Source: Thermoproteota archaeon
Lineage (GTDB): Archaea; Korarchaeota; Korarchaeia; Korarchaeales; Korarchaeaceae
NCBI GenBank assembly: GCA_027492205.1
Contig: JAOZFN010000007.1
Location: forward strand, 123,278-187,277
DNA: 64,000 bases
Reading direction: 5' to 3'
Shown here: positions 5,950 through 43,415 of the stretch, in pieces
How the letters are laid out: every line of letters begins with the position of its first letter
Position numbering within the stretch: the stretch's first letter is position 1
The notes under the pieces: generated by a model
Told to the model about the DNA's origin: nothing
Seen by the model: the letters and a program-made list of their open reading frames with translations, nothing else
Databases searched by the model: none
Made by a program: the position numbers and the translations under genes

Positions 5950-6698
5950 GGGTCCTGCTGGCGGCGATGGGGGGCCTGGGGATAGGGGCCGTGAGCGCGA
6001 TGACGGGGACGGGAGGGGGCACCCTCCTCGTGCCTCTCTACACACTCGTGCTCGGCATGGACATGAAGTCGGCCGTCGCGACCAGCCTGATGACGATGCC
6101 GCTCACGGCGCTGAGTTCCATACTCGTCTACCGAGAGATAATCGACTACAAGCTGGGTCTGGCCCTCGAGGCCACGACGACCGTGGGGGCGTACCTCGGA
6201 GCCAGGGCGGTGACCTCCATCCCGGAGGGGGCCCTCAGGATGGCGTTCGCCGTCGTCCTGGGATTCGTGGCCTTCAACATGCTTCGCAGGAGGGAGTCGT
6301 CCGACGATGCCGGGCTCAGGCGAGGCTGCTCGCGGCTATTCACCGCCATGGGCGTGTCATTTCTGGCGGGTGCCTTCAGCGGGATGCTGGGGATAGGGGG
6401 AGGAACGATCAAGGTCCCCATACTCGTGCTCGTATGCGGCACCGGCGCCAAGACGGCCGTCGCGACGTCCATGTTCATGATAGCGATCACCTCCACGGTG
6501 GGAGCGACGACCCACTACCTGGAGGGGAGGGGGCACCCGCTGATCGCGCTGATCACGGCCACCGGGCTCGTGGTGGGCGCCAGGGCGGGGGCTAAGAAGG
6601 CGATGGGACTTAGGGGAACCACTGTCAGGAGGATATTCGCGGCGTTTCTCATGCTGGTGGCCCTGAGGATGGCCCTACAGGCGTGGGGGATAATATGA
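5940..6698 (+). CDS. TSUP (TauE/SafE) family membrane transporter
   Basis: Duplicated G-x-GGG and AVATS motifs, about 8 hydrophobic helices. Overlaps both flanking moeA genes. Confidence 0.9.
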   Translation: MGLRVLLAAMGGLGIGAVSAMTGTGGGTLLVPLYTLVLGMDMKSAVATSLMTMPLTALSSILVYREIIDYKLGLALEATTTVGAYLGARAVTSIPEGALRMAFAVVLGFVAFNMLRRRESSDDAGLRRGCSRLFTAMGVSFLAGAFSGMLGIGGGTIKVPILVLVCGTGAKTAVATSMFMIAITSTVGATTHYLEGRGHPLIALITATGLVVGARAGAKKAMGLRGTTVRRIFAAFLMLVALRMALQAWGII

Positions 6699-8698
6699 GA
6701 GATGGAAGGAGGGTCTTTCGGAGCCTCAGCTCGGTTGACCGGGTGAGATCGGAGATCTGGGCCCGGCTCAGGGGGTTCGAGAGGAGGGTCGAGGAGATCC
6801 CCCTCGCAGAGGCCCTGGGGAGGGTGCTGGCCGAGGACGTCGTCTCGCCGGTGGACATACCGGGGTTTGACAGATCCACAAAGGACGGATACGCGGTCCG
6901 GGCCGAGGACACCTTCGGAGCCGATCAGGAGAATCCCGTCTCCCTCAGGATCTTGGGGGTTGCCTCGGCCGGGCACCCGTACCGCGGGGCGGTGGGTGAG
7001 GGAGAGGCCGTGGAGATAGCGACGGGGGCGCCCGTCCCCCTCGGCGCCGACGCCGTCGTCATGGTGGAGTACACCCGCCGGCTGGGGGATGTGGTTCAGG
7101 TGTATCGGGCCGTGGCGCCCGGGGAGAACGTTCAGTCGGCCGGAAGGGACGTCAACCTTGGGGAGACCCTGGTCTGGAGTGGGGACGCAATCGGGCCGAG
7201 GGAGATCGGGGTACTCGCGGCCGCGGGGATCGATCGGGTCAAGGTCTACTCACGCCCCCGGGTCGCGGTGATCAGCACTGGAGACGAGCTGACGCCGCAG
7301 GGGGTGGGCCTGGAGTACGGGAAGATCTACGACATCAACGGTCCCGCGCTTTGCGCCTCGATAAGGGAGGACGGCGGAGAGCCCGTATACATGGGGATAG
7401 CCGGGGATGAGGAGTCGGAGATCGCGAGGCTGATAGAGGAGGGTATTTCCAAGGCCGATCTGCTGGTGGTGTCGGGGAGCACAAGCGCCGGCGCCGGAGA
7501 CGTGATCTACAGGGTACTTGACAGGATCGGAGAGCCGGGGGTGTTCGTCCACGGGGTGGCGATGCACCCCGGGAAGCCGACGGTCGTGGCTCAGATTGGT
7601 CGAAAGCTTGCGTTCGGCCTTCCCGGAAACCCCACCAGCGCCATGACTGCGTACAGGATCTTTGTGGGTCCCGTGATCAGGTACCTGGCGGGGCTCGAGC
7701 CGGAGCCCGAGTCGATGAGGATCAGGGCCACCTTGGCCGAGCGGACGAGGGCCGCCAGGGGGAGGCGCGACTTCCTGCCCGTCCACCTGGTCAGGGACGC
7801 AGAGGGGAACGTCCTGGCGTTTCGCGTTCCCGGCGGGTCCGAGGCGATAACCACCTTCTCTCGCGCCGACGGGATACTGGATGTTCCGGAGGAGGTGGAG
7901 TATCTGGAGCAGGGGGAGCCCGTGACTGTGACGCTCTTAGATCCCGAGAGGGGGCCCGCCGATCTGTCCATCGTGGGGAGTCACTGCCTAGGCCTGGAGG
8001 AGCTCCTCAGGGTCGCTAGACCAAGGCTCGGGGGGAGTCGAGTTAAAGTCGTCAGCGTGGGCTCGACAGGCGGCTTCCTCGCGGTGAGGAAGGGGGAGGC
8101 GGACGTGGCGGGCGTGCACGCGCTGGACCCTTCCACCGGAGAGTACAACGTCCCCTTCCTGAGGTCGATGGGCGTCTCCGAGGTCGCGATCCTCGTGAGG
8201 GGGTACGTCAGGGTGCAGGGCCTGATCGTGGCGCCGGGCAACCCCAAGGGGATCCGGGGGGTGGAGGACCTGCTGAGGCCAGACGTCAGGATTCTGAACA
8301 GGAACCCCGGGTCCGGCACCAGGATCCTGATGGACTGGCTGACCGAGGGGCTGGCCAGGGAGCGGGGCGTCGACGTGGAGGAGCTCAGGTCCTCCATCCG
8401 GGGGTATCGGAGCGCGGCCAAGTCCCACGCCGCCGTGGCGTCGGCGGTCAAGGCCGGGCTCGTTGATGTCGGCCCGGGCATAGAGGCCGCCGCGAGGCTG
8501 AGGGGGCTGGACTTCATCCCGCTCTGGAGGGAGCGGTACGACTTCCTGGTGAGGGTCGACCGCCTGCCCAAGCGCGAGGTCCGGGCGCTCCTGGAGACCC
8601 TGAGGTCCGTCGCGTTCCGGAAAGCCCTGGACCGGCTCCCCGGCATAGAAGCCGACGAGAGTACCGGTGAAGTTATCCACGATCCGCGGCGGGCCTAA
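6695..8698 (+). CDS. moeA: MoeA fused to a C-terminal PBP-type (molybdate/tungstate-binding-like) domain
   Basis: MoeA motifs followed by GSHC, GSTGG, NRNPGSGTR and ERYDF. ATGA overlap with the TSUP gene. Confidence 0.93.
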   Translation: MRDGRRVFRSLSSVDRVRSEIWARLRGFERRVEEIPLAEALGRVLAEDVVSPVDIPGFDRSTKDGYAVRAEDTFGADQENPVSLRILGVASAGHPYRGAVGEGEAVEIATGAPVPLGADAVVMVEYTRRLGDVVQVYRAVAPGENVQSAGRDVNLGETLVWSGDAIGPREIGVLAAAGIDRVKVYSRPRVAVISTGDELTPQGVGLEYGKIYDINGPALCASIREDGGEPVYMGIAGDEESEIARLIEEGISKADLLVVSGSTSAGAGDVIYRVLDRIGEPGVFVHGVAMHPGKPTVVAQIGRKLAFGLPGNPTSAMTAYRIFVGPVIRYLAGLEPEPESMRIRATLAERTRAARGRRDFLPVHLVRDAEGNVLAFRVPGGSEAITTFSRADGILDVPEEVEYLEQGEPVTVTLLDPERGPADLSIVGSHCLGLEELLRVARPRLGGSRVKVVSVGSTGGFLAVRKGEADVAGVHALDPSTGEYNVPFLRSMGVSEVAILVRGYVRVQGLIVAPGNPKGIRGVEDLLRPDVRILNRNPGSGTRILMDWLTEGLARERGVDVEELRSSIRGYRSAAKSHAAVASAVKAGLVDVGPGIEAAARLRGLDFIPLWRERYDFLVRVDRLPKREVRALLETLRSVAFRKALDRLPGIEADESTGEVIHDPRRA

Positions 8699-8712: not shown

Positions 8713-9273
8713 CTATTCACCGCTTCCGTGGCCGTCGGCGTGCTTGTGCCTGTACCCTCTCGCGACCCACACTGCGTGCTCGGCTTCCGGGAGGATGAGC
8801 CTCTCAAGGGCGAGTCGGATCCCGTCTGGAGATCCCGGGAGGCAGAACACAACCGAGTCGCCGACCACCCCGGCTGTGGCCCTTGAGAGGAACGCTGCGG
8901 GTCCCACCTGCTCGTAGCTGAGCATCCGAAAGAGCTCTCCGAATCCGGGGAGCTCCTTTGTAAAAGCTGGCCGCACGGCCTCTACCGTGACGTCATTCGG
9001 GTGGGGGCCAGTGCCTCCAAGGAAGAGCACCACGTCGACCTTGCCCGCGGCCGCCCTGACCGCCTCACCTATCTCCTCCAGCGAGTCTGGCAGCACGTCC
9101 CTCTCGACGACCCGGTGACCGGCCGACTCGACGAGGCTGACCGCGAGGTCGCCGCTCTCGTCTACGAAGGCCTCTCCACGCGACTTGGCGGCGTGTCTCG
9201 AGGAGCTGACCACGAAGACGGCGAAGGTGAGCTCAGACCTGGCGCGCTCCCTGTGGCGATCTACGGACCTCAC
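8713..9273 (-). CDS. moaB: Molybdopterin adenylyltransferase, MoaB/MogA family
   Basis: DESG, GGTG, DVTVEA, LPGFGELFR, LSRATAG, CLPGS. Start is GTG 9273 or TTG 9291. Confidence 0.92.
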   Translation of the reverse strand: MRSVDRHRERARSELTFAVFVVSSSRHAAKSRGEAFVDESGDLAVSLVESAGHRVVERDVLPDSLEEIGEAVRAAAGKVDVVLFLGGTGPHPNDVTVEAVRPAFTKELPGFGELFRMLSYEQVGPAAFLSRATAGVVGDSVVFCLPGSPDGIRLALERLILPEAEHAVWVARGYRHKHADGHGSGE

Positions 9274-9347
9274 GGCTGGCGCTCCTAGCAAGATAGGTAT
9301 TCAACTTATCGTGTGTCGGTCTGGAGTGGTCAGGGGGGTCTCAGCGA

Positions 9348-9421: not shown

Positions 9422-9473
9422 TATCGGTCGGTCCATCTCGGGCTTTTTAATTCGAGTCGGGCAACCCGGAGCG

Positions 9474-10208
9474 ATGGCCGCCGACGGGCTGAGCCTAGAA
9501 ATCCCGGAAGTGGATCGGGCGGAGGGCATCGACCTCATCGAGTATCTGCTGTCGCCAGTCAAGGATCCGTGGAGCGTCTTCAGAAAGGCCACGAGGCGGC
9601 CCAGCCTGAGGCTGTTCCTGCTGGCGGCCCTGATAGTGTCCGCCATGGGATCTGCCGGCGGCGTCATCGTGGCCTCCAGGACTGAGTACAGGTTCGTCAA
9701 CCTCCCTGAGGGCGTCGACCCGGCGCAGATCCAGGCCGCAGCGAGGGTGTTCAGCGGACCGGCCTTCGTGGGCGCGACGTCGTTCGTCTCTGGGATGGTG
9801 GTCGCCCTCCTGGCGGGCGGACTCGCCCACGTCGTCGCGAGGCTGGCCGGAGGAGAACCCGTGAACCTATCCACCACGCTGACCTGCTTTGGGGCGGTGT
9901 ACCTGACGGAGGGCGTGAAGTCACTGATAGACGTGGTCGGCCTGCTTCAGACCCTGCCCGAGAGGATCGTCATCACGATAGACCTCGCCAACCCCTACTC
10001 GGCGCGCGCGGGCGACGTAGCGAAGCAGTTTCAGGCCACGCCCGTGTCGCTCGCCATGTCGGGTCTGGTGGCTGTGTGGCAGTGGTTCCTCCTCACAGAG
10101 CTGATGAGGACGGTATTTGGCCTGGGCCGGGGCAAGTCGGCGGCCGCCGCCGCGGTTCTGGTCCTGCTGAAGTTCATCCCGCTGTTCGCTGGCCTCGCGC
10201 TGTGGTGA
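9474..10208 (+). CDS. Yip1-family membrane protein
   Basis: LLSPVKDPWSVF start, LAHVVARLAGG, five hydrophobic helices and GLGRGKSAAA near the end fit the Yip1 pattern. Confidence 0.7.
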   Translation: MAADGLSLEIPEVDRAEGIDLIEYLLSPVKDPWSVFRKATRRPSLRLFLLAALIVSAMGSAGGVIVASRTEYRFVNLPEGVDPAQIQAAARVFSGPAFVGATSFVSGMVVALLAGGLAHVVARLAGGEPVNLSTTLTCFGAVYLTEGVKSLIDVVGLLQTLPERIVITIDLANPYSARAGDVAKQFQATPVSLAMSGLVAVWQWFLLTELMRTVFGLGRGKSAAAAAVLVLLKFIPLFAGLALW

Positions 10209-10226: not shown

Positions 10227-12494
10227 TTGACGGATCTAGTGGAGGCGGTGGCCGAGGGACTGGCGAGGGAGGCCCTGGAGAGCGGCGAGCGGAGGCTCCT
10301 CCTGGTATCGTGCGAGGACAGGCTGGGGGCCCTGGCCAAGGTGGCCAGGGTCTACAGGAGGGTCGCGGGTGAGGGGGTCAGCGCCCTCTACTCCAACGTC
10401 TGGGTCGGTGAGGAGGTCCTGGGGAGCCGGAGGCTGTCGAGCCAGATCCCGAGAGACGTTCGCCTGACTTCCCTGGACTTCGACCGCAGCGAGGAGGCCA
10501 TGGGGGGGACCTGGGACATTCTCCTCACGGACTTCTCCGTGCAGATGAGGGCAAACGACATAGGGAGGCTGGTCGAGACCGTGAGAGGAGGCGGCCTAGT
10601 CGTCATGGCCATCCCGCCCGTGGAGGAGTGGCTGAGGACCCTCACGGACTTTCAGAGGCGGCTAGCCTCGCCGCCGTACCGAGAGTCCGACGTGAGGGCC
10701 GAGTTCAAGAAGCGGCTCCTCAAGACCGTGAAGAGCGCCGAGGGCGCCAGGTTCGTGGATCTCGAGTCTGGCGACGTTACAGGCGCCCCGAGAGTGGTTC
10801 AGAGGAGGGAGCGTCAGCCCCCCCAGGTGGACGACCCCCTGATGAGCCTGGCCCTGACCCCTGAGCAGGTGCGGGTGGTGGAGGCCATCGACAGGCTGTC
10901 TCGGGCCCCCAACAAGTCCGCCCTGCTCGTAGTGGCCAACAGGGGCCGGGGCAAGTCGGCCGCCCTGGGACTGGGAATAGCCCACCTGATGGGGAGGAGG
11001 GGCGTCAGGGGTGTGGCGGTTACGGCCCCGGCGGTAGCGGGAGTTCAGACCCTCTTCAGGTTCGTCTCCAGGGGGCTCGAGGCGCTGGGGATACGCGGAA
11101 GGGCCGTCGTGAAGGACGGGAGGACGATAGCCGTCACGGCCAAGGGGAGGTCCGCGTTCTACCTGACCCCGATGAGCCTCGTCGACTCCAACGTCAAGGT
11201 GAAGGTCGTCGACGAGGCCGCCGGGATCCCGACGCACCTGCTGTTCAAGGTGCTGGGATCGAGCAGGCTGGCCATCTTCTCCAGCACGATTCACGGGTAC
11301 GAGGGCGCCGGGAGGGGGTTCTCCCAGCGATTCATGGCCAGGCTCGGGGCCGCGAGCGGGGTGGTGGAGAGGGTGGAGATGCGGACCCCGATACGGTACC
11401 CCGAGGGCGACCCAGTCGAGAGGTGGCTCTACGACTTCCTGCTGCTCGACGCGGAGCCTGGAGACCCGCCCGAAGGCGCCTCCCCGGAGGCCGGGGAGTA
11501 CGTGAAGGTGGACCTGTCCGCCAGCGACGAGGGGTTCCTCAAGAAGTTCTACGGGATCTACGTCCTGGCCCACTACAGGAACAGACCCAACGACCTCGCC
11601 ACGCTCCTGGACGCGCCCCACCACTCCGCGCGGGCCCTGCTGATCGAAGGGGAGCCAGTGGTCTCGGTCCAAATCTGCGAGGAGGGCAGGCTCACCCGGA
11701 GATACATCGAGGGCATCCTGAAGAGGACGGAGAACCCGCCGGGGCACATGATACCGTCGAGGCTGCTGGCGCACTACGGGCACAAGGGGTTCCCCAAGCT
11801 CTGGGGCTGGAGGATCGTTCGCATAGCGACTCACCCGGCGCTCCAGCGCCGGGGCCTCGGCACGAGGGTCCTGCAGGAGATAGTGAGAGAGGCGCGGGCG
11901 GCCGGGGTTGACTGGGTGGGCGCCGGCTTCGGGGCGAGCGAGGATCTCCTCAGGTTCTGGGTCAGGGCCGGCTTCCTGCCGGTTCACATAAGCCCCCAGA
12001 GGAACCCGGTCTCCGGAGAGTACAGCGTCTTCGTCGTCCTCCCTCTCAGCAGGCAGGCCGAGGACATGTTGAGGGAGATAGTTGGAGAGTTCAAGAGGAG
12101 GCTGATCGACTCCCTGCACGACGTCTACTTCGACCTATCTCCTCGCGTGGGCAGGATGCTCCTCTCGCCGCGTTGGGGGGAGGCCAGGCCCAGGCTCAGG
12201 TTCAGCCAGAAACTGAGGCTGAAGGACTACCTGACGGGCTACAACACCTACGAGATGGCCTCAGACGCGGTTTGGGAGATCGCCAGGGCTTACTTCCTCT
12301 CTCCCCCCGACGAGAGGCCGCTCACGGAAGAGGAGGAGGTCGCGCTGCTCGCGCGAACCCTGCAGGGCCGTGGTTGGGGCATGGTCGCCGGACTCCTGAA
12401 GGTTAAGAAGGTCGTCGAAGTTATGGACATCCTCAGGGGGGCCGTTAAGAAGCTGGTGATGCTCTATGGGGAGAAAGAAATCGCTGAGGTTTGA
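10227..12494 (+). CDS. tmcA: RNA cytidine N4-acetyltransferase TmcA/Nat10
   Basis: VETVRGGG, ANRGRGKSA, DEAAGIP, STIHGYEGAGRGF, PIRY, AHYRNRPNDL and GNAT motif RIATHPALQRRGLG. Confidence 0.95.
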   Translation: MTDLVEAVAEGLAREALESGERRLLLVSCEDRLGALAKVARVYRRVAGEGVSALYSNVWVGEEVLGSRRLSSQIPRDVRLTSLDFDRSEEAMGGTWDILLTDFSVQMRANDIGRLVETVRGGGLVVMAIPPVEEWLRTLTDFQRRLASPPYRESDVRAEFKKRLLKTVKSAEGARFVDLESGDVTGAPRVVQRRERQPPQVDDPLMSLALTPEQVRVVEAIDRLSRAPNKSALLVVANRGRGKSAALGLGIAHLMGRRGVRGVAVTAPAVAGVQTLFRFVSRGLEALGIRGRAVVKDGRTIAVTAKGRSAFYLTPMSLVDSNVKVKVVDEAAGIPTHLLFKVLGSSRLAIFSSTIHGYEGAGRGFSQRFMARLGAASGVVERVEMRTPIRYPEGDPVERWLYDFLLLDAEPGDPPEGASPEAGEYVKVDLSASDEGFLKKFYGIYVLAHYRNRPNDLATLLDAPHHSARALLIEGEPVVSVQICEEGRLTRRYIEGILKRTENPPGHMIPSRLLAHYGHKGFPKLWGWRIVRIATHPALQRRGLGTRVLQEIVREARAAGVDWVGAGFGASEDLLRFWVRAGFLPVHISPQRNPVSGEYSVFVVLPLSRQAEDMLREIVGEFKRRLIDSLHDVYFDLSPRVGRMLLSPRWGEARPRLRFSQKLRLKDYLTGYNTYEMASDAVWEIARAYFLSPPDERPLTEEEEVALLARTLQGRGWGMVAGLLKVKKVVEVMDILRGAVKKLVMLYGEKEIAEV

Positions 12495-12819
12495 CAGGAG
12501 GTACGTGGACAGCATACTCAGGGGAGAGAAGGTCACCACGATCAGGAGGACGACGAGGCTCAAGCCGGGGGACGTGGTGGACTTGGTGGCCGGGGAAGAG
12601 GTGTTCGGCGAGGCCCTCGTGAAGGACGTGAGGAAGGTGAGCCTCTCTGGGCTCACGGACGAGGAAGCCCGGCGGGACGGGTTCGAGTCCAAGGAGGGGC
12701 TGGTGAAGGCCCTGAAGAGGTACTACGGCAGGAGAGTGCTCGAGGATGATCAGCTCTGGATGATCGAATTTCAGCTCTTAGAGGGCAGCGACAAAGACGT
12801 CGAAGGAGAAAGAGGGTGA
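12466..12819 (+). CDS. ASCH domain protein (YqfB-like)
   Basis: ILRGEKVTTIR (GxKxxTxR), LKPGD, LTDEEARRDGF, terminal MIEF. Overlaps tmcA by 29 nt. Confidence 0.9.
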   Translation: MGRKKSLRFDRRYVDSILRGEKVTTIRRTTRLKPGDVVDLVAGEEVFGEALVKDVRKVSLSGLTDEEARRDGFESKEGLVKALKRYYGRRVLEDDQLWMIEFQLLEGSDKDVEGERG

Positions 12820-12955: not shown

Positions 12956-14173
12956 TCACTCCACTATAACGGCCAGAGCCTGACCAGGCCAGTCTTCGGG
13001 TATGTAGCCCCACTCGGCTATTTGAATCAGGCCGGTGCTCGCCAGCTCCGCGAAGTCGGGCTTCAAGAGGAGGTTCTTCCTGACGGTCAGCGTCACGAGG
13101 CTGGAGCCAACCATCGTCCTATCCTCGGCCAGATCACGAACCCTCGATGTCAGAGCGTCGCCCCACCCCCTGGGCTCTAGTGGAACGGCGCGTCCCCCGA
13201 ACAGCCGCCTGAGCTTTGACCCCAGTCCAGGCTCCGTGAGCTTTGAGGGGGGTAACAGCTCGAGCCTCGTCTTCTTCCCCTCTCCGAAGATCACGACCCC
13301 GAGTGGAATCTTAACCCGTGAGCACGACTCAAAATCTTCCTCCCTCAGCGCAGTCAGTAGGCTTCTGGACTTTACCTCGCTCTCTAGCTCCCTCTTAAGG
13401 GTCTCCAGAGCCTCTATCGGCTGACCATACTTCGCGTCTATCCCTCGAAGTTCCTTGGACCTTTCCTCCTCCAGCTGCGCCCTTCTGGTCTCGAACCCCT
13501 CGCCCTCTAGGTGAAGTCGGGCCTCAGAGATTCTCGCAGCGTGGGCCCTTGAGATGGCGGCCCTCTCTGACTCCGCTAGGGACCTGATCGAGTTGGTTAG
13601 GGCCTCCAGCTTATTCAGATAACTCTCAAGGATCTCAACATCTCTTTTGGACCTCACGCCGATCTCTTTTAGGGCCGAATAGGAGCTGGCTGCCTTCTCT
13701 TGCGTTAGTGAAGGTGGCAAAGTGCCGCCAGGAAGTCCCGAATCTTCTACCGCTTCAGAGAGGGCCCATCTAATTAGCCGGGGGTCTACCAACCCGGAGA
13801 GTTCAACGTCTCGCCTTGCAGATCTTATGCTGGAGTAGGCAAACTCAGCCGACCTCGTCAGCCGCTCAAGATCTAGTATGGAGGGCCTATCCAAGAAGGT
13901 AAGGGCCGAAGACAGTGCGTCGCGATCCGTTAGGCCGAGCCGGAGGGAGAGTAATCCAGATGGGTCCCAAAAAGTGCACCTGCCGTCTACCCTCATCGGT
14001 TCCAGGGTGAATTCCGCCACACCAAGCCCGTCGGGCTTCTCAGTTTTGGACCACGGAAACCTGCCTCTCTTGGCCTTGCTCCAGGCGAATAGGGTGATGG
14101 CCCCGGCCTCCAGCTCGGGTGACGGTGGAGCATTTGGAGCCGCGATGAGAGGGACCCTCAAGCGGCGCGACAC
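12956..14173 (-). CDS. Hypothetical protein with central coiled coil
   Basis: 405-aa ORF filling the gap, with a heptad-rich middle and no catalytic motif recognised. Confidence 0.7.
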   Translation of the reverse strand: MSRRLRVPLIAAPNAPPSPELEAGAITLFAWSKAKRGRFPWSKTEKPDGLGVAEFTLEPMRVDGRCTFWDPSGLLSLRLGLTDRDALSSALTFLDRPSILDLERLTRSAEFAYSSIRSARRDVELSGLVDPRLIRWALSEAVEDSGLPGGTLPPSLTQEKAASSYSALKEIGVRSKRDVEILESYLNKLEALTNSIRSLAESERAAISRAHAARISEARLHLEGEGFETRRAQLEEERSKELRGIDAKYGQPIEALETLKRELESEVKSRSLLTALREEDFESCSRVKIPLGVVIFGEGKKTRLELLPPSKLTEPGLGSKLRRLFGGRAVPLEPRGWGDALTSRVRDLAEDRTMVGSSLVTLTVRKNLLLKPDFAELASTGLIQIAEWGYIPEDWPGQALAVIVE

Positions 14174-42578: not shown

Positions 42579-43415
42579 TTGAGGGGCGAGTTTGAGAGCG
42601 CCGAGGAGCCGCGGACCAGCGAGGGTGAGATGTACCACGTCGCACTCGGACCTGGGGACGTCAGGAGGTACGCGCTCCTCCCGGGAGACGTAGAAAGGGC
42701 GGAGAAGATAGCCGCAGAGTGGGAAGAGCGTAGGCTCGTGGCGAAGCACAGGGAGTACGTCACTTACGTGGGCAGATACAGGGGCGTGGACCTGATGGTC
42801 ACGTCCACGGGCATCGGGGGGCCGGCCGCAGCGATCGCGGTCGACGAACTCTCCAGGCTCGGCGTGGACACCTTCATCAGGGTTGGGAGCACGGGGACCA
42901 TCAGGCCGGAGGTCGAGCTGGGAGATCTCGTGATCCCCCTAGGGGCAGTAAGGCTGGACGGCGCCAGCGCGCAGTACGTCAGGCCCGAATACCCCGCGGT
43001 GGCTCACTACGAGGTTGTGATGGCCCTCGTGGAGGCCGCCGAGTCGCTCGGCTACAGGTATCACCTGGGCCTCACGGCGTCGACGGACAGCTTCTACACC
43101 GGACAGGGGAGGCGAGGGTGCTGTGGATACTGGCAGAGCTGGATGGATAGCATTATTCCCGATCTGCAGGCCGCTGGCGTCGTCAACATCGAGATGGAGG
43201 CCGCCACGATCTTCACGCTGGCCTCGCTGTTCGGGAAGAGGGCCGGAGCCATCTGCGCGGTCTACGCGCAGAGGTTGAGAGATGAGTTTGCCATAGCGGG
43301 GGAGAGAGAGGCCATAAAGACGGCAAACGAGGCCGTCAAGATTCTCGCCGAGTGGGATGAGGTGAAGAGGTCTGCCAACAAGAAGCACTTCTACCCGGGG
43401 CTGCTCCGGAGGTGA
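42579..43415 (+). CDS. udp: Uridine phosphorylase
   Basis: LLPGD, HREY, STGIGGP, IRVGSTG, RLDGAS, TDSFYTGQ, NIEME. TTG start after SD GGGGTGA. Confidence 0.9.
   Translation: MRGEFESAEEPRTSEGEMYHVALGPGDVRRYALLPGDVERAEKIAAEWEERRLVAKHREYVTYVGRYRGVDLMVTSTGIGGPAAAIAVDELSRLGVDTFIRVGSTGTIRPEVELGDLVIPLGAVRLDGASAQYVRPEYPAVAHYEVVMALVEAAESLGYRYHLGLTASTDSFYTGQGRRGCCGYWQSWMDSIIPDLQAAGVVNIEMEAATIFTLASLFGKRAGAICAVYAQRLRDEFAIAGEREAIKTANEAVKILAEWDEVKRSANKKHFYPGLLRR

What the first reader, a model, noticed from the sequence alone, without database searches (positions are those of the whole stretch)
10227..12819. Possible ac4C writer/eraser pair: tmcA overlapped by a YqfB-like ASCH gene
Seen: the ASCH gene starts 29 nt inside the tmcA 3' end, implying translational coupling, and carries GEKVTTIR and LTDEEARRDG. 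Established: TmcA/Nat10 writes N4-acetylcytidine in RNA, widespread and temperature-responsive in hyperthermophilic archaea. The E. coli ASCH protein YqfB is an N4-acetylcytidine amidohydrolase with a Lys-Thr-Glu triad. By eye the Lys and Thr align and the Glu position is Asp. Inference: this operon couples ac4C deposition to its removal, recycling or reading. I know of no described archaeal ac4C eraser.
Basis: partly seen in the sequence, partly recalled or inferred. Interest (0 to 1): 0.8.

Follow-up and report, generated by a model that had tools for sequence, protein, structure and literature searches.

The report
tmcA with overlapping YqfB-like ac4C amidohydrolase gene
An archaeal gene for the enzyme that acetylates cytidine in RNA is overlapped by a small gene closely resembling the enzyme that removes that acetyl group; the pairing is real and widespread in archaea but was already reported in 2026.

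Summary
tmcA (10227-12494, +) is overlapped by 29 nt by a 117-aa ASCH gene (12466-12819, +) carrying both quoted motifs. The ASCH protein is YqfB-like. Its family profile hits E. coli YqfB at E 8e-11 over the full length. Its AF2 model superposes best on YqfB crystal structures. Lys22, Thr25, Arg27 and Tyr87 align with YqfB Lys21, Thr24, Arg26 and Tyr89, and Asp71 replaces Glu74.

The link to tmcA is not chance. In 301 archaeal genomes this ASCH clade occurs in 68 of 83 genomes with tmcA and in 1 of 218 without, and that one is a contig-end artefact. The genes are adjacent in 25 of 68 genomes, spanning 9 of 16 families.

It is not new. An August 2026 preprint states that YqfB-clade ASCH genes form conserved operons with TmcA/Nat10. 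A February 2026 preprint shows archaeal ASCH proteins removing ac4C from nucleoside and tRNA in vitro.

My reading is an ac4C amidohydrolase co-expressed with the writer. Recycling of released ac4C is most likely; RNA-level erasing or proofreading is a close rival.

The parts
10227..12494 (+). tmcA: RNA cytidine N4-acetyltransferase (TmcA/Nat10 type), 755 aa
   Evidence: Pfam TmcA_N (1.7e-27), NAT10_TcmA_helicase (1.8e-48) and GNAT_acetyltr_2 (3.9e-38). NCBIfam TmcA model scores 476 bits, below its haloarchaeal equivalog cut-off of 700. The Walker-A residues R239-S244 and the GNAT residues G543 and G545 are invariant across 31 orthologues.
12466..12819 (+). YqfB-clade ASCH gene, 117 aa: predicted N4-acetylcytidine amidohydrolase
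   Evidence: Pfam ASCH 1.7e-14. NCBIfam ac4C aminohydrolase model scores 28.2 bits against a cut-off of 93. 29% identity to E. coli YqfB over the full length. Profile versus PDB puts YqfB first at E 8e-11. AF2 model has pLDDT 85.1. Foldseek top hits are 9kyf/9kyh with target-normalised TM 0.83-0.85 and rmsd 1.9-2.4 A. It is the only ASCH gene in this genome.
12466..12494 (+). 29-nt overlap of the tmcA 3' end and the ASCH 5' end, in different frames
   Evidence: The same 29-nt overlap is seen in the window's own genus and in a sister genus (the locus held both as L005 and as L020, plus L021), and overlaps or short gaps are seen in most other linked loci.
12455..12460 (+). GGTGAT, a Shine-Dalgarno-like hexamer 5 nt upstream of the ASCH ATG, inside tmcA
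   Evidence: Read. Complementarity to the 16S rRNA 3' end is from general knowledge and was not tested here.
12523..12546 (+). ASCH octapeptide GEKVTTIR (G20-R27), holding K22, T25 and R27
   Evidence: K22, T25 and R27 are invariant in all 36 rows (window plus 35 tmcA-associated loci). They align with YqfB K21, T24 and R26, whose alanine mutants are inactive (PMC6972931).
12652..12681 (+). LTDEEARRDG (L63-G72), with D71 at the position of YqfB E74
   Evidence: Of 34 full-length tmcA-associated sequences, position 71 is D in 26, E in 7 and A in 1. Alignment to YqfB E74 is shown.
12724..12726 (+). Y87 codon, equivalent to YqfB Y89
   Evidence: Invariant in 34 of 34 full-length sequences and aligned with Y89.
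9474..10208 (+). Yip1-domain membrane protein gene, 18 nt upstream of tmcA on the same strand; possibly the first gene of the transcription unit in this genus
   Evidence: Pfam Yip1 1.3e-08. It is beside tmcA in only 2 of 80 tmcA loci, both close relatives, so it is not part of the conserved pair.
9445..9451 (+). TTTTTAA, a TATA-box-like heptamer 22 nt upstream of the Yip1 ATG (inference only)
   Evidence: Read. The bacterial-type promoter scan is not informative for archaea.

Best explanation
The 117-aa gene encodes a YqfB-clade ASCH amidohydrolase that hydrolyses N4-acetylcytidine to cytidine and acetate. It is transcribed with tmcA and probably translationally coupled to it, so it is made whenever and roughly as much as the ac4C writer. 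I think its main job is downstream clean-up. ac4C nucleoside or nucleotide released when TmcA-acetylated RNA turns over cannot enter cytidine salvage until deacetylated, and the load scales with writer activity. Shown here: the gene pair, its overlap, its conservation, its phyletic dependence on tmcA, and YqfB-like fold and residues. Inferred: the activity, the substrate form (free rather than in RNA), and the coupling.
For: 1. Homology to the characterised enzyme.
- The profile of 34 tmcA-linked ASCH sequences hits YqfB at E 8e-11 over residues 5-102. The next solved ASCH protein scores 0.004 and the others above 0.1.
- The AF2 model matches YqfB crystal structures best, including the ac4C complex 9kyh.
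- K22, T25, R27 and Y87 are invariant, and position 71 is D or E in 33 of 34 sequences.
- These align with residues whose mutation abolishes or reduces YqfB activity.

2. Link to tmcA.
- ASCH lies immediately downstream on the same strand in 33 of 75 assessable tmcA loci out of 80 fetched.
- The window's other neighbours recur in only 2-5 of the 80 loci.
- In 301 genomes the clade is present in 68 of 83 with tmcA and in 1 of 218 without. That one genome has a tmcA fragment at a contig end.

3. Support for free ac4C as substrate.
- YqfB is highly efficient on N4-acylated cytosines/cytidines (kcat/Km up to 2.8e6 M-1 s-1).
- E. coli yqfB deletion does not change RNA ac4C.
- EOLA1/2 loss raises free ac4C but not RNA ac4C, and N4-acetylation blocks cytidine deaminase.
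- Obligate co-expression with the writer suits a flux-matched clean-up enzyme better than a regulated eraser (inference).
- The genome encodes one CDA-fold deaminase and six PNP/UDP-family nucleoside phosphorylases.
Against: - No activity was measured.
- The protein scores far below the curated YqfB equivalog cut-off (28.2 against 93 bits).
- It lacks two residues fully conserved in enterobacterial YqfB: H70 is E67 and D27 is R28.
- One linked lineage has Ala at position 71.
- Most tmcA-linked members are strongly basic (median pI 9.71; 26 of 34 at 9 or above).
- Some tmcA-adjacent orthologues (L008, L014, L058) carry a C-terminal helical domain resembling the HTH reported to bind tRNA. Both features suit a nucleic-acid substrate better than a free nucleoside.
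- No uridine/cytidine kinase (PF00485) was found in this 96%-complete genome.
- Fifteen of 83 tmcA genomes lack the clade, and 43 of 68 genomes with both genes have them unlinked.
Confidence: 0.42

Rival explanations
1. RNA-level eraser or proofreader. The ASCH protein removes acetyl groups from ac4C within tRNA, rRNA or other RNA. Made together with TmcA, it would trim off-target or accessible acetylations and so set which sites stay modified.
For: - All 19 ASCH proteins tested, nine of them archaeal, removed ac4C from E. coli tRNA in vitro. Stand-alone members such as Afu2 also removed ac4C12 from a D-stem.
- The window protein belongs to the same G-x-K-x-x-T-x-R group as the tested Afu2, Afu3, Pku2 and Pku4.
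- tmcA-linked members are mostly basic (median pI 9.71).
- tmcA-adjacent orthologues in G029, G030, G031 and L058 carry a C-terminal four-helix extension. Its weak best structural matches are HTH domains: 1xsv Z 5.4, WhiA Z 5.1, sigma region 4 Z 4.4. That is the description given for the tRNA-binding AAAD_HTH domain.
Against: - Writer and eraser from overlapping genes acting on the same sites would burn acetyl-CoA and ATP in a futile cycle (inference).
- The window protein has no HTH. Its whole-protein pI is 7.93, with a disordered acidic tail, although the core (residues 1-105) is 9.5.
- In vivo data for the two studied relatives, YqfB and EOLA1, show no effect on RNA ac4C.
- The HTH structural matches are below the tool's own reliability range.
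Confidence: 0.33
2. Non-catalytic ac4C reader or RNA adaptor. The PUA-like ASCH domain binds target RNA or ac4C and works as a subunit that guides TmcA, as Tan1/THUMPD1 helps Kre33/NAT10 (recalled).
For: Overlapping genes often encode subunits made in fixed ratio (general knowledge). ASCH is a PUA-like fold found in RNA-binding contexts. One linked lineage has Ala at the acid position.
Against: K22, T25, R27 and Y87 are invariant, and the acid is kept in 33 of 34 sequences across distant phyla. That pattern marks a conserved active site. Fifteen of 83 tmcA genomes lack the clade and 43 of 68 have it unlinked, which is unexpected for an obligate subunit.
Confidence: 0.08
3. Linkage without ac4C chemistry. 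The ASCH protein acts on another substrate (another N4-acylated base, or RNA cleavage as reported for ZmASCH) and merely rides in the tmcA transcription unit.
For: YqfB accepts structurally different N4-acyl cytosines. ZmASCH is described as a ssRNA nuclease. The protein falls below the curated YqfB cut-off.
Against: The clade is absent from genomes that lack tmcA (effectively 0 of 218 against 68 of 83). Adjacency recurs in 9 of 16 families while the other neighbours change. The closest sequence and structural relative is the ac4C enzyme itself.
Confidence: 0.07

Closest known systems
E. coli YqfB, N4-acetylcytidine amidohydrolase (PDB 1TE7, 9KYF, 9KYH; NCBIfam NF003443)
   Same: Single ASCH domain of about 100-117 aa. 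29% identity over the full length. Best sequence and structure match. K, T, R and Y of the active site are conserved. Thr lies two residues before the Arg, the mark of the YqfB clade.
   Different: Asp replaces Glu74, Glu replaces His70 and Arg replaces Asp27. The score is far below the equivalog cut-off. The core is basic and there is an acidic, disordered C-terminal tail. In E. coli K-12 yqfB sits between trhA and bglA, with no tmcA within 7 kb upstream or 6 kb downstream, whereas here it overlaps tmcA.
YqfB-clade ASCH / TmcA-Nat10 conserved operons noted in bioRxiv 10.64898/2026.08.01.741249 (also PMC13484572)
   Same: The same gene pair and the same inference, that the ASCH protein acts on ac4C made by the acetyltransferase (passages read).
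   Different: The paper gives one sentence and a supplementary figure (Fig. S1a) that I could not see, so its taxa and counts are unknown to me. The overlap geometry, the phyletic dependence on tmcA and the archaeal range given here come from my own calls.
Archaeal ASCH proteins of the G-K-T-R group tested in bioRxiv 10.64898/2026.02.27.708502 (Afu2, Afu3, Pku2, Pku4)
   Same: Archaeal, same octapeptide type. Afu2 is a stand-alone domain. The paper reports hydrolysis of ac4C nucleoside and deacetylation of tRNA in vitro.
   Different: The paper does not mention tmcA neighbourhood. In a genome with two ASCH-HTH genes (G037), neither lies near tmcA.
Human EOLA1 (TRIP4-like ASCH clade), free-ac4C deacetylase
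   Same: Stand-alone ASCH domain, K and R conserved, proposed role in recycling ac4C from RNA turnover.
   Different: It belongs to another clade, with Glu in place of the Thr. It is a distant structural match: 5y7d, Foldseek E 1.5e-2.
ArkI / KptA reversible tRNA 2'-phosphorylation in thermophilic archaea (PMC9095486)
   Same: A conceptual precedent for a writer and remover of a thermostabilising tRNA modification in archaea. I saw only the search listing and abstract start; the enzyme names are recalled.
   Different: Unrelated enzymes and chemistry. I know of no report that they share an operon (recalled, not searched).

Membership tests
ASCH superfamily (Pfam PF04266) | Match to the ASCH profile above the gathering score | tested here: met
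   54.8 bits against a cut-off of 21.2, covering profile positions 1-102 of 103.
ASCH superfamily (Pfam PF04266) | PUA-like beta-barrel with helices | tested here: met
   AF2 model with pLDDT 85.1. All 14 Foldseek hits at E <= 0.001 that are listed are ASCH proteins.
YqfB clade of ASCH / YqfB-type ac4C amidohydrolase | Octapeptide G-x-K-x-x-[T/S]-x-R, with Thr or Ser two residues before the Arg | tested here: met
   GEKVTTIR, with K22, T25 and R27, invariant in 36 of 36 rows. The clade definition is quoted.
YqfB clade of ASCH / YqfB-type ac4C amidohydrolase | Acidic residue at the Glu74 position | tested here: met
   Asp71, a conservative change. The position is D in 26, E in 7 and A in 1 of 34 linked sequences.
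YqfB clade of ASCH / YqfB-type ac4C amidohydrolase | Other residues 100% conserved in close YqfB homologues: Asp27, His70, Tyr89 | tested here: not met
   Tyr is kept (Y87), but Asp27 is Arg28 and His70 is Glu67. The His70Ala mutant keeps about a tenth of the activity.
YqfB clade of ASCH / YqfB-type ac4C amidohydrolase | Score above the NCBIfam NF003443 equivalog cut-off | tested here: not met
   28.2 bits against 93. It is therefore not an equivalog of the enterobacterial enzyme by that curated rule, although the model aligns end to end (6-105 against 5-103 of 104).
YqfB clade of ASCH / YqfB-type ac4C amidohydrolase | Closest solved relative is YqfB, in sequence and in fold | tested here: met
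   Profile E 8e-11 against 0.004 for the next ASCH protein. Foldseek ranks 1-3 are 9kyf and 9kyh.
YqfB clade of ASCH / YqfB-type ac4C amidohydrolase | Hydrolysis of N4-acetylcytidine | not testable with these tools
   Needs an enzyme assay.
TmcA / Nat10 RNA cytidine acetyltransferase | TmcA_N + helicase/ATPase + GNAT domain order, with Walker A and GNAT motifs | tested here: met
   Three Pfam domains in order. R239-G-R-G-K-S244, D329-E-A and G543/G545 are invariant in 31 orthologues.
TmcA / Nat10 RNA cytidine acetyltransferase | Score above the NCBIfam NF041296 (haloarchaeal TmcA equivalog) cut-off | tested here: not met
   476 bits against 700. That model is lineage-specific, and the alignment is full length (8-753 against 3-740 of 746).
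Conserved tmcA-ASCH operon | Same-strand adjacency recurring in unrelated lineages while other neighbours change | tested here: met
   33 of 75 assessable tmcA loci. 25 of 68 genomes and 9 of 16 families. Other neighbours occur in 2-5 of 80 loci.
Conserved tmcA-ASCH operon | Co-transcription and translational coupling | not testable with these tools
   The geometry fits (29-nt overlap, SD-like GGTGAT), but no RNA data were available.

The most novel reading that the evidence does not exclude
The overlapping tmcA-ASCH pair is a built-in writer-proofreader module. The ASCH enzyme, made in fixed ratio with TmcA, strips ac4C from accessible or wrongly acetylated RNA sites. The archaeal ac4C map and its temperature response would then be set by competition between one promiscuous writer and one co-expressed eraser. 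Lineages that add an HTH to the eraser would have tuned it to tRNA.
Probability: 0.3. Interest if true: 0.7.

Novelty: new member of a known kind. Interest (0 to 1): 0.4.

Why it matters
ac4C is abundant and temperature-responsive in hyperthermophilic archaea (as summarised), and how it is removed or recycled is only now being worked out. The general link is already published. What this locus adds is a natural system in which the writer and a YqfB-like hydrolase are genetically tied. The hydrolase clade occurs only where tmcA occurs, the start codon sits inside tmcA in most lineages, and some lineages add a nucleic-acid-binding domain. That makes the open question, free-nucleoside salvage or RNA-level erasing, directly testable with orthologues from many archaeal groups. 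It also gives a rule for annotating these small genes.

Tried and rejected
- **Complex prediction of TmcA with ASCH** (alignments A4 and A3): verdict 'no answer' (score 0.00, mark 0.32). This says nothing either way about binding. It was accepted unchanged. Searches found it unfinished.
- **RNA evidence for co-transcription**: no RNA holder was listed. Three metatranscriptome runs of the same sample hold next to none of the words.
- **The search for related loci with the ASCH alignment A1**: I used a TmcA alignment instead.
- **Iyer et al. 2006 ASCH paper** (PMID 16322048): not held, so I cannot say whether it already noted the link.
- **Literature searches**: 'ASCH' with 'COG1444' found nothing. 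'ASCH' with 'TmcA' gave only the two 2026 preprints as relevant among the 20 of 107 papers listed.
- **Frameshift fusion of TmcA and ASCH**: rejected. The ASCH gene has its own conserved ATG and N-terminus. Other lineages have a gap between the genes or a divergent orientation.
- **Residual synteny as the cause of adjacency**: rejected by the flank control.
- **Neighbours of unlinked ASCH genes**: DUF711 and a thioredoxin-reductase-like gene in one genus (L010, L011), and HAD hydrolases in G037. These gave no clear functional lead.
- **Charge difference between linked and unlinked members**: no clean pattern.
- **Bacterial-type promoter and terminator scan**: uninformative for an archaeon.
- **C-terminal extension of the ASCH-HTH forms**: no Pfam match and only weak HTH-like structural matches of Z 4.4-5.4. 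Identity with the published AAAD_HTH domain is therefore likely but not shown.
- **Distance correlation**: ASCH and TmcA pairwise identities correlate (r 0.857; 0 of 2000 permutations reached it). Any two vertically inherited genes would correlate, so I give this little weight.
Full report
**Observation.** The window holds a 755-aa ORF at 10227-12494 (+) and a 117-aa ORF at 12466-12819 (+). The second starts with an ATG 29 nt before the end of the first one's stop codon, in another frame.
- Pfam assigns TmcA_N, the NAT10/TmcA helicase domain and GNAT_acetyltr_2 to the first ORF, and ASCH (E 1.7e-14) to the second.
- A GGTGAT hexamer lies 5 nt upstream of the ASCH ATG.
- The N-terminus is conserved in relatives, so the overlap is real.
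- Antisense ORFs have no family match, and the DNA is 56-69% GC.
- This is the only ASCH gene in the 1.94-Mb, 96%-complete genome.

**What the small protein is.**
- A single-sequence search of solved structures finds only YqfB, weakly (E 0.01 and 0.03).
- A profile of 34 orthologues (A3) finds YqfB at E 8e-11 over the full length. The next hit is a Pyrococcus ASCH protein at 0.004, and the others score above 0.1.
- Direct comparison with E. coli K-12 YqfB gives 29% identity end to end.
- The AF2 model has pLDDT 85.1, with a disordered tail at residues 108-117.
- Its best Foldseek matches are the YqfB crystal structures 9kyf and 9kyh, with E 1.5e-8 to 3.4e-8, target-normalised TM 0.83-0.85 and rmsd 1.9-2.4 A. 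Other ASCH proteins follow.
- Alignment puts K22, T25, R27 and Y87 on YqfB K21, T24, R26 and Y89, and D71 on E74. YqfB H70 and D27 are E67 and R28 here.
- In YqfB the K21A, T24A and R26A mutants are inactive, and E74A is 100- to 1000-fold slower (PMC6972931, passages read).
- The protein scores only 28.2 bits on the curated YqfB model, whose cut-off is 93. It is YqfB-like but not an equivalog by that rule.

**Is the pairing with tmcA more than chance?** I tested this in three ways.

1. *Close and distant relatives of the window's genome (41 genomes).*
   - The two genes are adjacent on the same strand in all 5 genomes of the window's own genus.
   - The same holds for all 5 genomes of a sister genus, and for single or paired genomes of five further genera.
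   - They are not adjacent in 10 of 10 genomes of another genus of the same family, nor in one genome of another phylum.
   - One apparent case of ASCH without tmcA (G030) has a tmcA C-terminal fragment directly upstream at the contig end.

2. *The best 80 of 515 tmcA loci from species-representative genomes, scanned with an ASCH profile.*
   - 35 of 80 loci have an ASCH gene within the 3-kb flanks.
   - 33 of these lie immediately downstream on the same strand, one is divergent upstream (L041), and one is 2 kb downstream (L051).
   - Five loci lack enough downstream DNA to judge, so the rate is 33 of 75.
   - By record title, the linked loci come from several groups: Thermoproteota of various kinds (Bathyarchaeia, Methanomethylicota, Nezhaarchaeota, Geothermarchaeota), Thermoplasmata and DHVE2/Aciduliprofundum, Baldrarchaeota and Micrarchaeota.
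   - Desulfurococcales, Sulfolobales, Ignisphaera, Thermofilum and Wolframiiraptor loci have no ASCH gene nearby.
   - The window's other neighbours (MoeA, MoaB, Yip1, a 405-aa ORF, glutamate dehydrogenase) recur in only 2-5 of the 80 loci, mostly close relatives.
   - With my heuristic start calls, 31 of the 33 downstream genes begin inside the tmcA 3' end. The overlaps are 4-83 nt, with one outlier of 224 nt in L025 that is probably a mis-called end. Two have gaps of 14 and 70 nt. I compared these by hand.

3. *An unselected sample of 301 archaeal genomes at least 80% complete (parsed).*
   - tmcA is found in 83 genomes.
   - A strong match to the ASCH profile (E <= 1e-20) is found in 69 genomes, of which 68 have tmcA. 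The remaining one is G030.
   - The clade is thus present in 68 of 83 tmcA genomes and effectively none of 218 others.
   - Fifteen tmcA genomes lack it. Eight of these are small genomes of one family.
   - The genes are adjacent (within 300 nt) in 25 of 68 genomes: 22 same-strand downstream and 3 divergent.
   - At family level, 9 of 16 families holding both genes have at least one adjacent pair.
   - Two large groups never have them adjacent (0 of 14 and 0 of 6).
   - Related genomes are not independent, so the family-level counts are the fairer measure.
   - Weaker ASCH matches (E 1e-13 to 1e-18, mostly in ORFs of 380-400 aa) occur in tmcA-less genomes and belong to other ASCH forms.

**Conservation within the linked clade.**
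- In the window plus 35 loci, K22, T25 and R27 are invariant in 36 of 36 rows.
- G72 and Y87 are invariant in the 34 full-length rows.
- Position 71 is D in 26, E in 7 and A in 1. Asp and Glu therefore interchange at the YqfB Glu74 position.
- Members are mostly basic: median pI 9.71, with 26 of 34 at 9 or above. The window protein is 7.93 overall and 9.5 without its acidic tail.
- In three AT-rich genomes of the window's own small phylum (43 genomes held), the tmcA-adjacent gene carries a C-terminal extension. In G031 (L009) it is cut by the contig end, so its length there is unknown.
- In one Baldrarchaeota locus (L058) it carries a C-terminal extension of about 90 aa, 205 aa in all.
- A 198-aa form (L008) models at pLDDT 90.3 as an ASCH domain plus four helices.
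  - Its ASCH part matches YqfB at Z 14.9 and rmsd 1.6 A.
  - Its helical part gives only weak HTH-type matches of Z 4.4-5.4 and has no Pfam match.
  - This fits the 'AAAD_HTH' domain that a preprint reports as driving tRNA binding, but I could not compare sequences.

**Prior art.** I read passages and named sections of two preprints.
- bioRxiv 10.64898/2026.02.27.708502 (abstract, Results parts 1-2 and Discussion).
  - It tests 19 ASCH proteins, including three from A. fulgidus and six from P. kukulkanii.
  - All of them remove ac4C from E. coli tRNA in vitro, and most hydrolyse the nucleoside.
  - It says nothing on tmcA neighbourhood.
- bioRxiv 10.64898/2026.08.01.741249, also held as PMC13484572 (passages and part 1 of 4 of section 41).
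[quoted passage not shown] S1a)'.
  - It defines the clade by an absolutely conserved Thr or Ser two residues before the Arg, which the window protein has.
- The 2006 paper that defined ASCH was not held.
- In E. coli K-12, yqfB lies between trhA and bglA, with no tmcA in the 14 kb examined.

**How it most likely works.**
- *Shown:* a YqfB-like active site, obligate genomic coupling to the writer in many lineages, and presence only where the writer exists.
- *Inferred:* the protein hydrolyses ac4C made by TmcA.

I put about 0.75 on that general statement and split it as follows.
- **Recycling of released ac4C nucleoside or nucleotide is slightly ahead (0.42).**
  - The relatives studied in vivo do not alter RNA ac4C. 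yqfB deletion has no effect on it, and EOLA1/2 loss raises only free ac4C.
  - N4-acetylation blocks cytidine deaminase.
  - Fixed co-expression suits a flux-matched clean-up enzyme better than a regulated eraser.
  - The genome has a CDA-fold deaminase and six nucleoside phosphorylase genes, although no uridine kinase was found.
- **RNA-level erasing or proofreading is close behind (0.33).**
  - In vitro tRNA deacetylation was seen for every archaeal ASCH protein tested.
  - The clade is basic, and some tmcA-adjacent orthologues carry HTH fusions.
- **A non-catalytic reader or adaptor (0.08) and an unrelated function (0.07) are unlikely.** The active site is invariant, and the clade depends on tmcA.

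A complex prediction and a search for RNA reads gave no usable answer. Both are recorded under Tried and rejected.

**Verdict.**
- The functional link is well supported.
- The claim of novelty is not supported, because the operon association and archaeal ASCH ac4C deacetylases were both reported in 2026.
- This locus is a new, uncharacterised member of that known kind.
- My survey adds three things: the strict tmcA dependence, the family-level adjacency counts, and the overlap geometry.

Noticed in passing
window 12956-14173 (-): A 405-aa ORF convergent with the ASCH gene has no Pfam or NCBIfam match. It appears beside tmcA in only 2 of 80 loci, both close relatives. Its sequence is rich in charged, helix-like repeats.
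   Followed up: partly
window 6683-8698 (+) and 8713-9291 (-): A MoeA molybdopterin molybdenumtransferase is fused to a C-terminal PBP-like (periplasmic-binding-protein fold) domain. It sits next to a MoaB/Mog-like gene on the opposite strand.
   Followed up: no
L012:2701-3611 (-) and L013:2736-4014 (-) (genome G037): In a genome with unlinked ASCH genes, one ASCH-HTH gene directly follows a second, plain ASCH gene. Both ASCH-HTH loci lie near a HAD-family hydrolase gene (directly adjacent in L013, about 0.4 kb away in L012). This may hint at nucleotide dephosphorylation before deacetylation, but that is speculative.
   Followed up: partly
L010:1215-4187 (+), L011:1927-4661 (-): In the sister genus where the ASCH gene has left tmcA, it sits tightly between a DUF711 gene and a thioredoxin-reductase-like flavoprotein gene in two genomes; in L010 an ACT-domain gene precedes the DUF711 gene.
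   Followed up: partly
G033, G068, G090, G111, G132, G153, G173, G192, G211, G230, G249, G267, G285, G303 (places): Genomes without tmcA carry ORFs of 377-398 aa with a weaker ASCH-like stretch (E 1e-13 to 1e-18 against the linked-clade profile). This is a different, larger ASCH-containing protein confined to three families.
   Followed up: no
L018:5235-5582 (+); L007:2833-3159 (-) (G027); G028: One lineage keeps the tmcA-ASCH overlap (ATGA in L018; not checked for L007/G027) and has K, T, R and Y intact, but has Ala in place of the Asp/Glu at position 71. This is either a natural test of how essential the acid is, or a shift in function.
   Followed up: partly
G058, G081, G123; L041:2583-2942 (-): In one family the ASCH gene is divergent from tmcA rather than downstream, about 100 nt apart. 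The link is kept through a shared upstream region instead of an operon.
   Followed up: no
G000 contigs C7, C9, C16; one copy at window about 42666-43322 (+): The genome has six PNP/UDP-family nucleoside phosphorylase genes, many for a 1.9-Mb genome. No uridine kinase was found.
   Followed up: no
window 12027-12494 (TmcA residues about 600-755): The C-terminal 150 residues or so of TmcA have no Pfam domain match at E <= 0.01, although they are conserved among archaeal orthologues.
   Followed up: no
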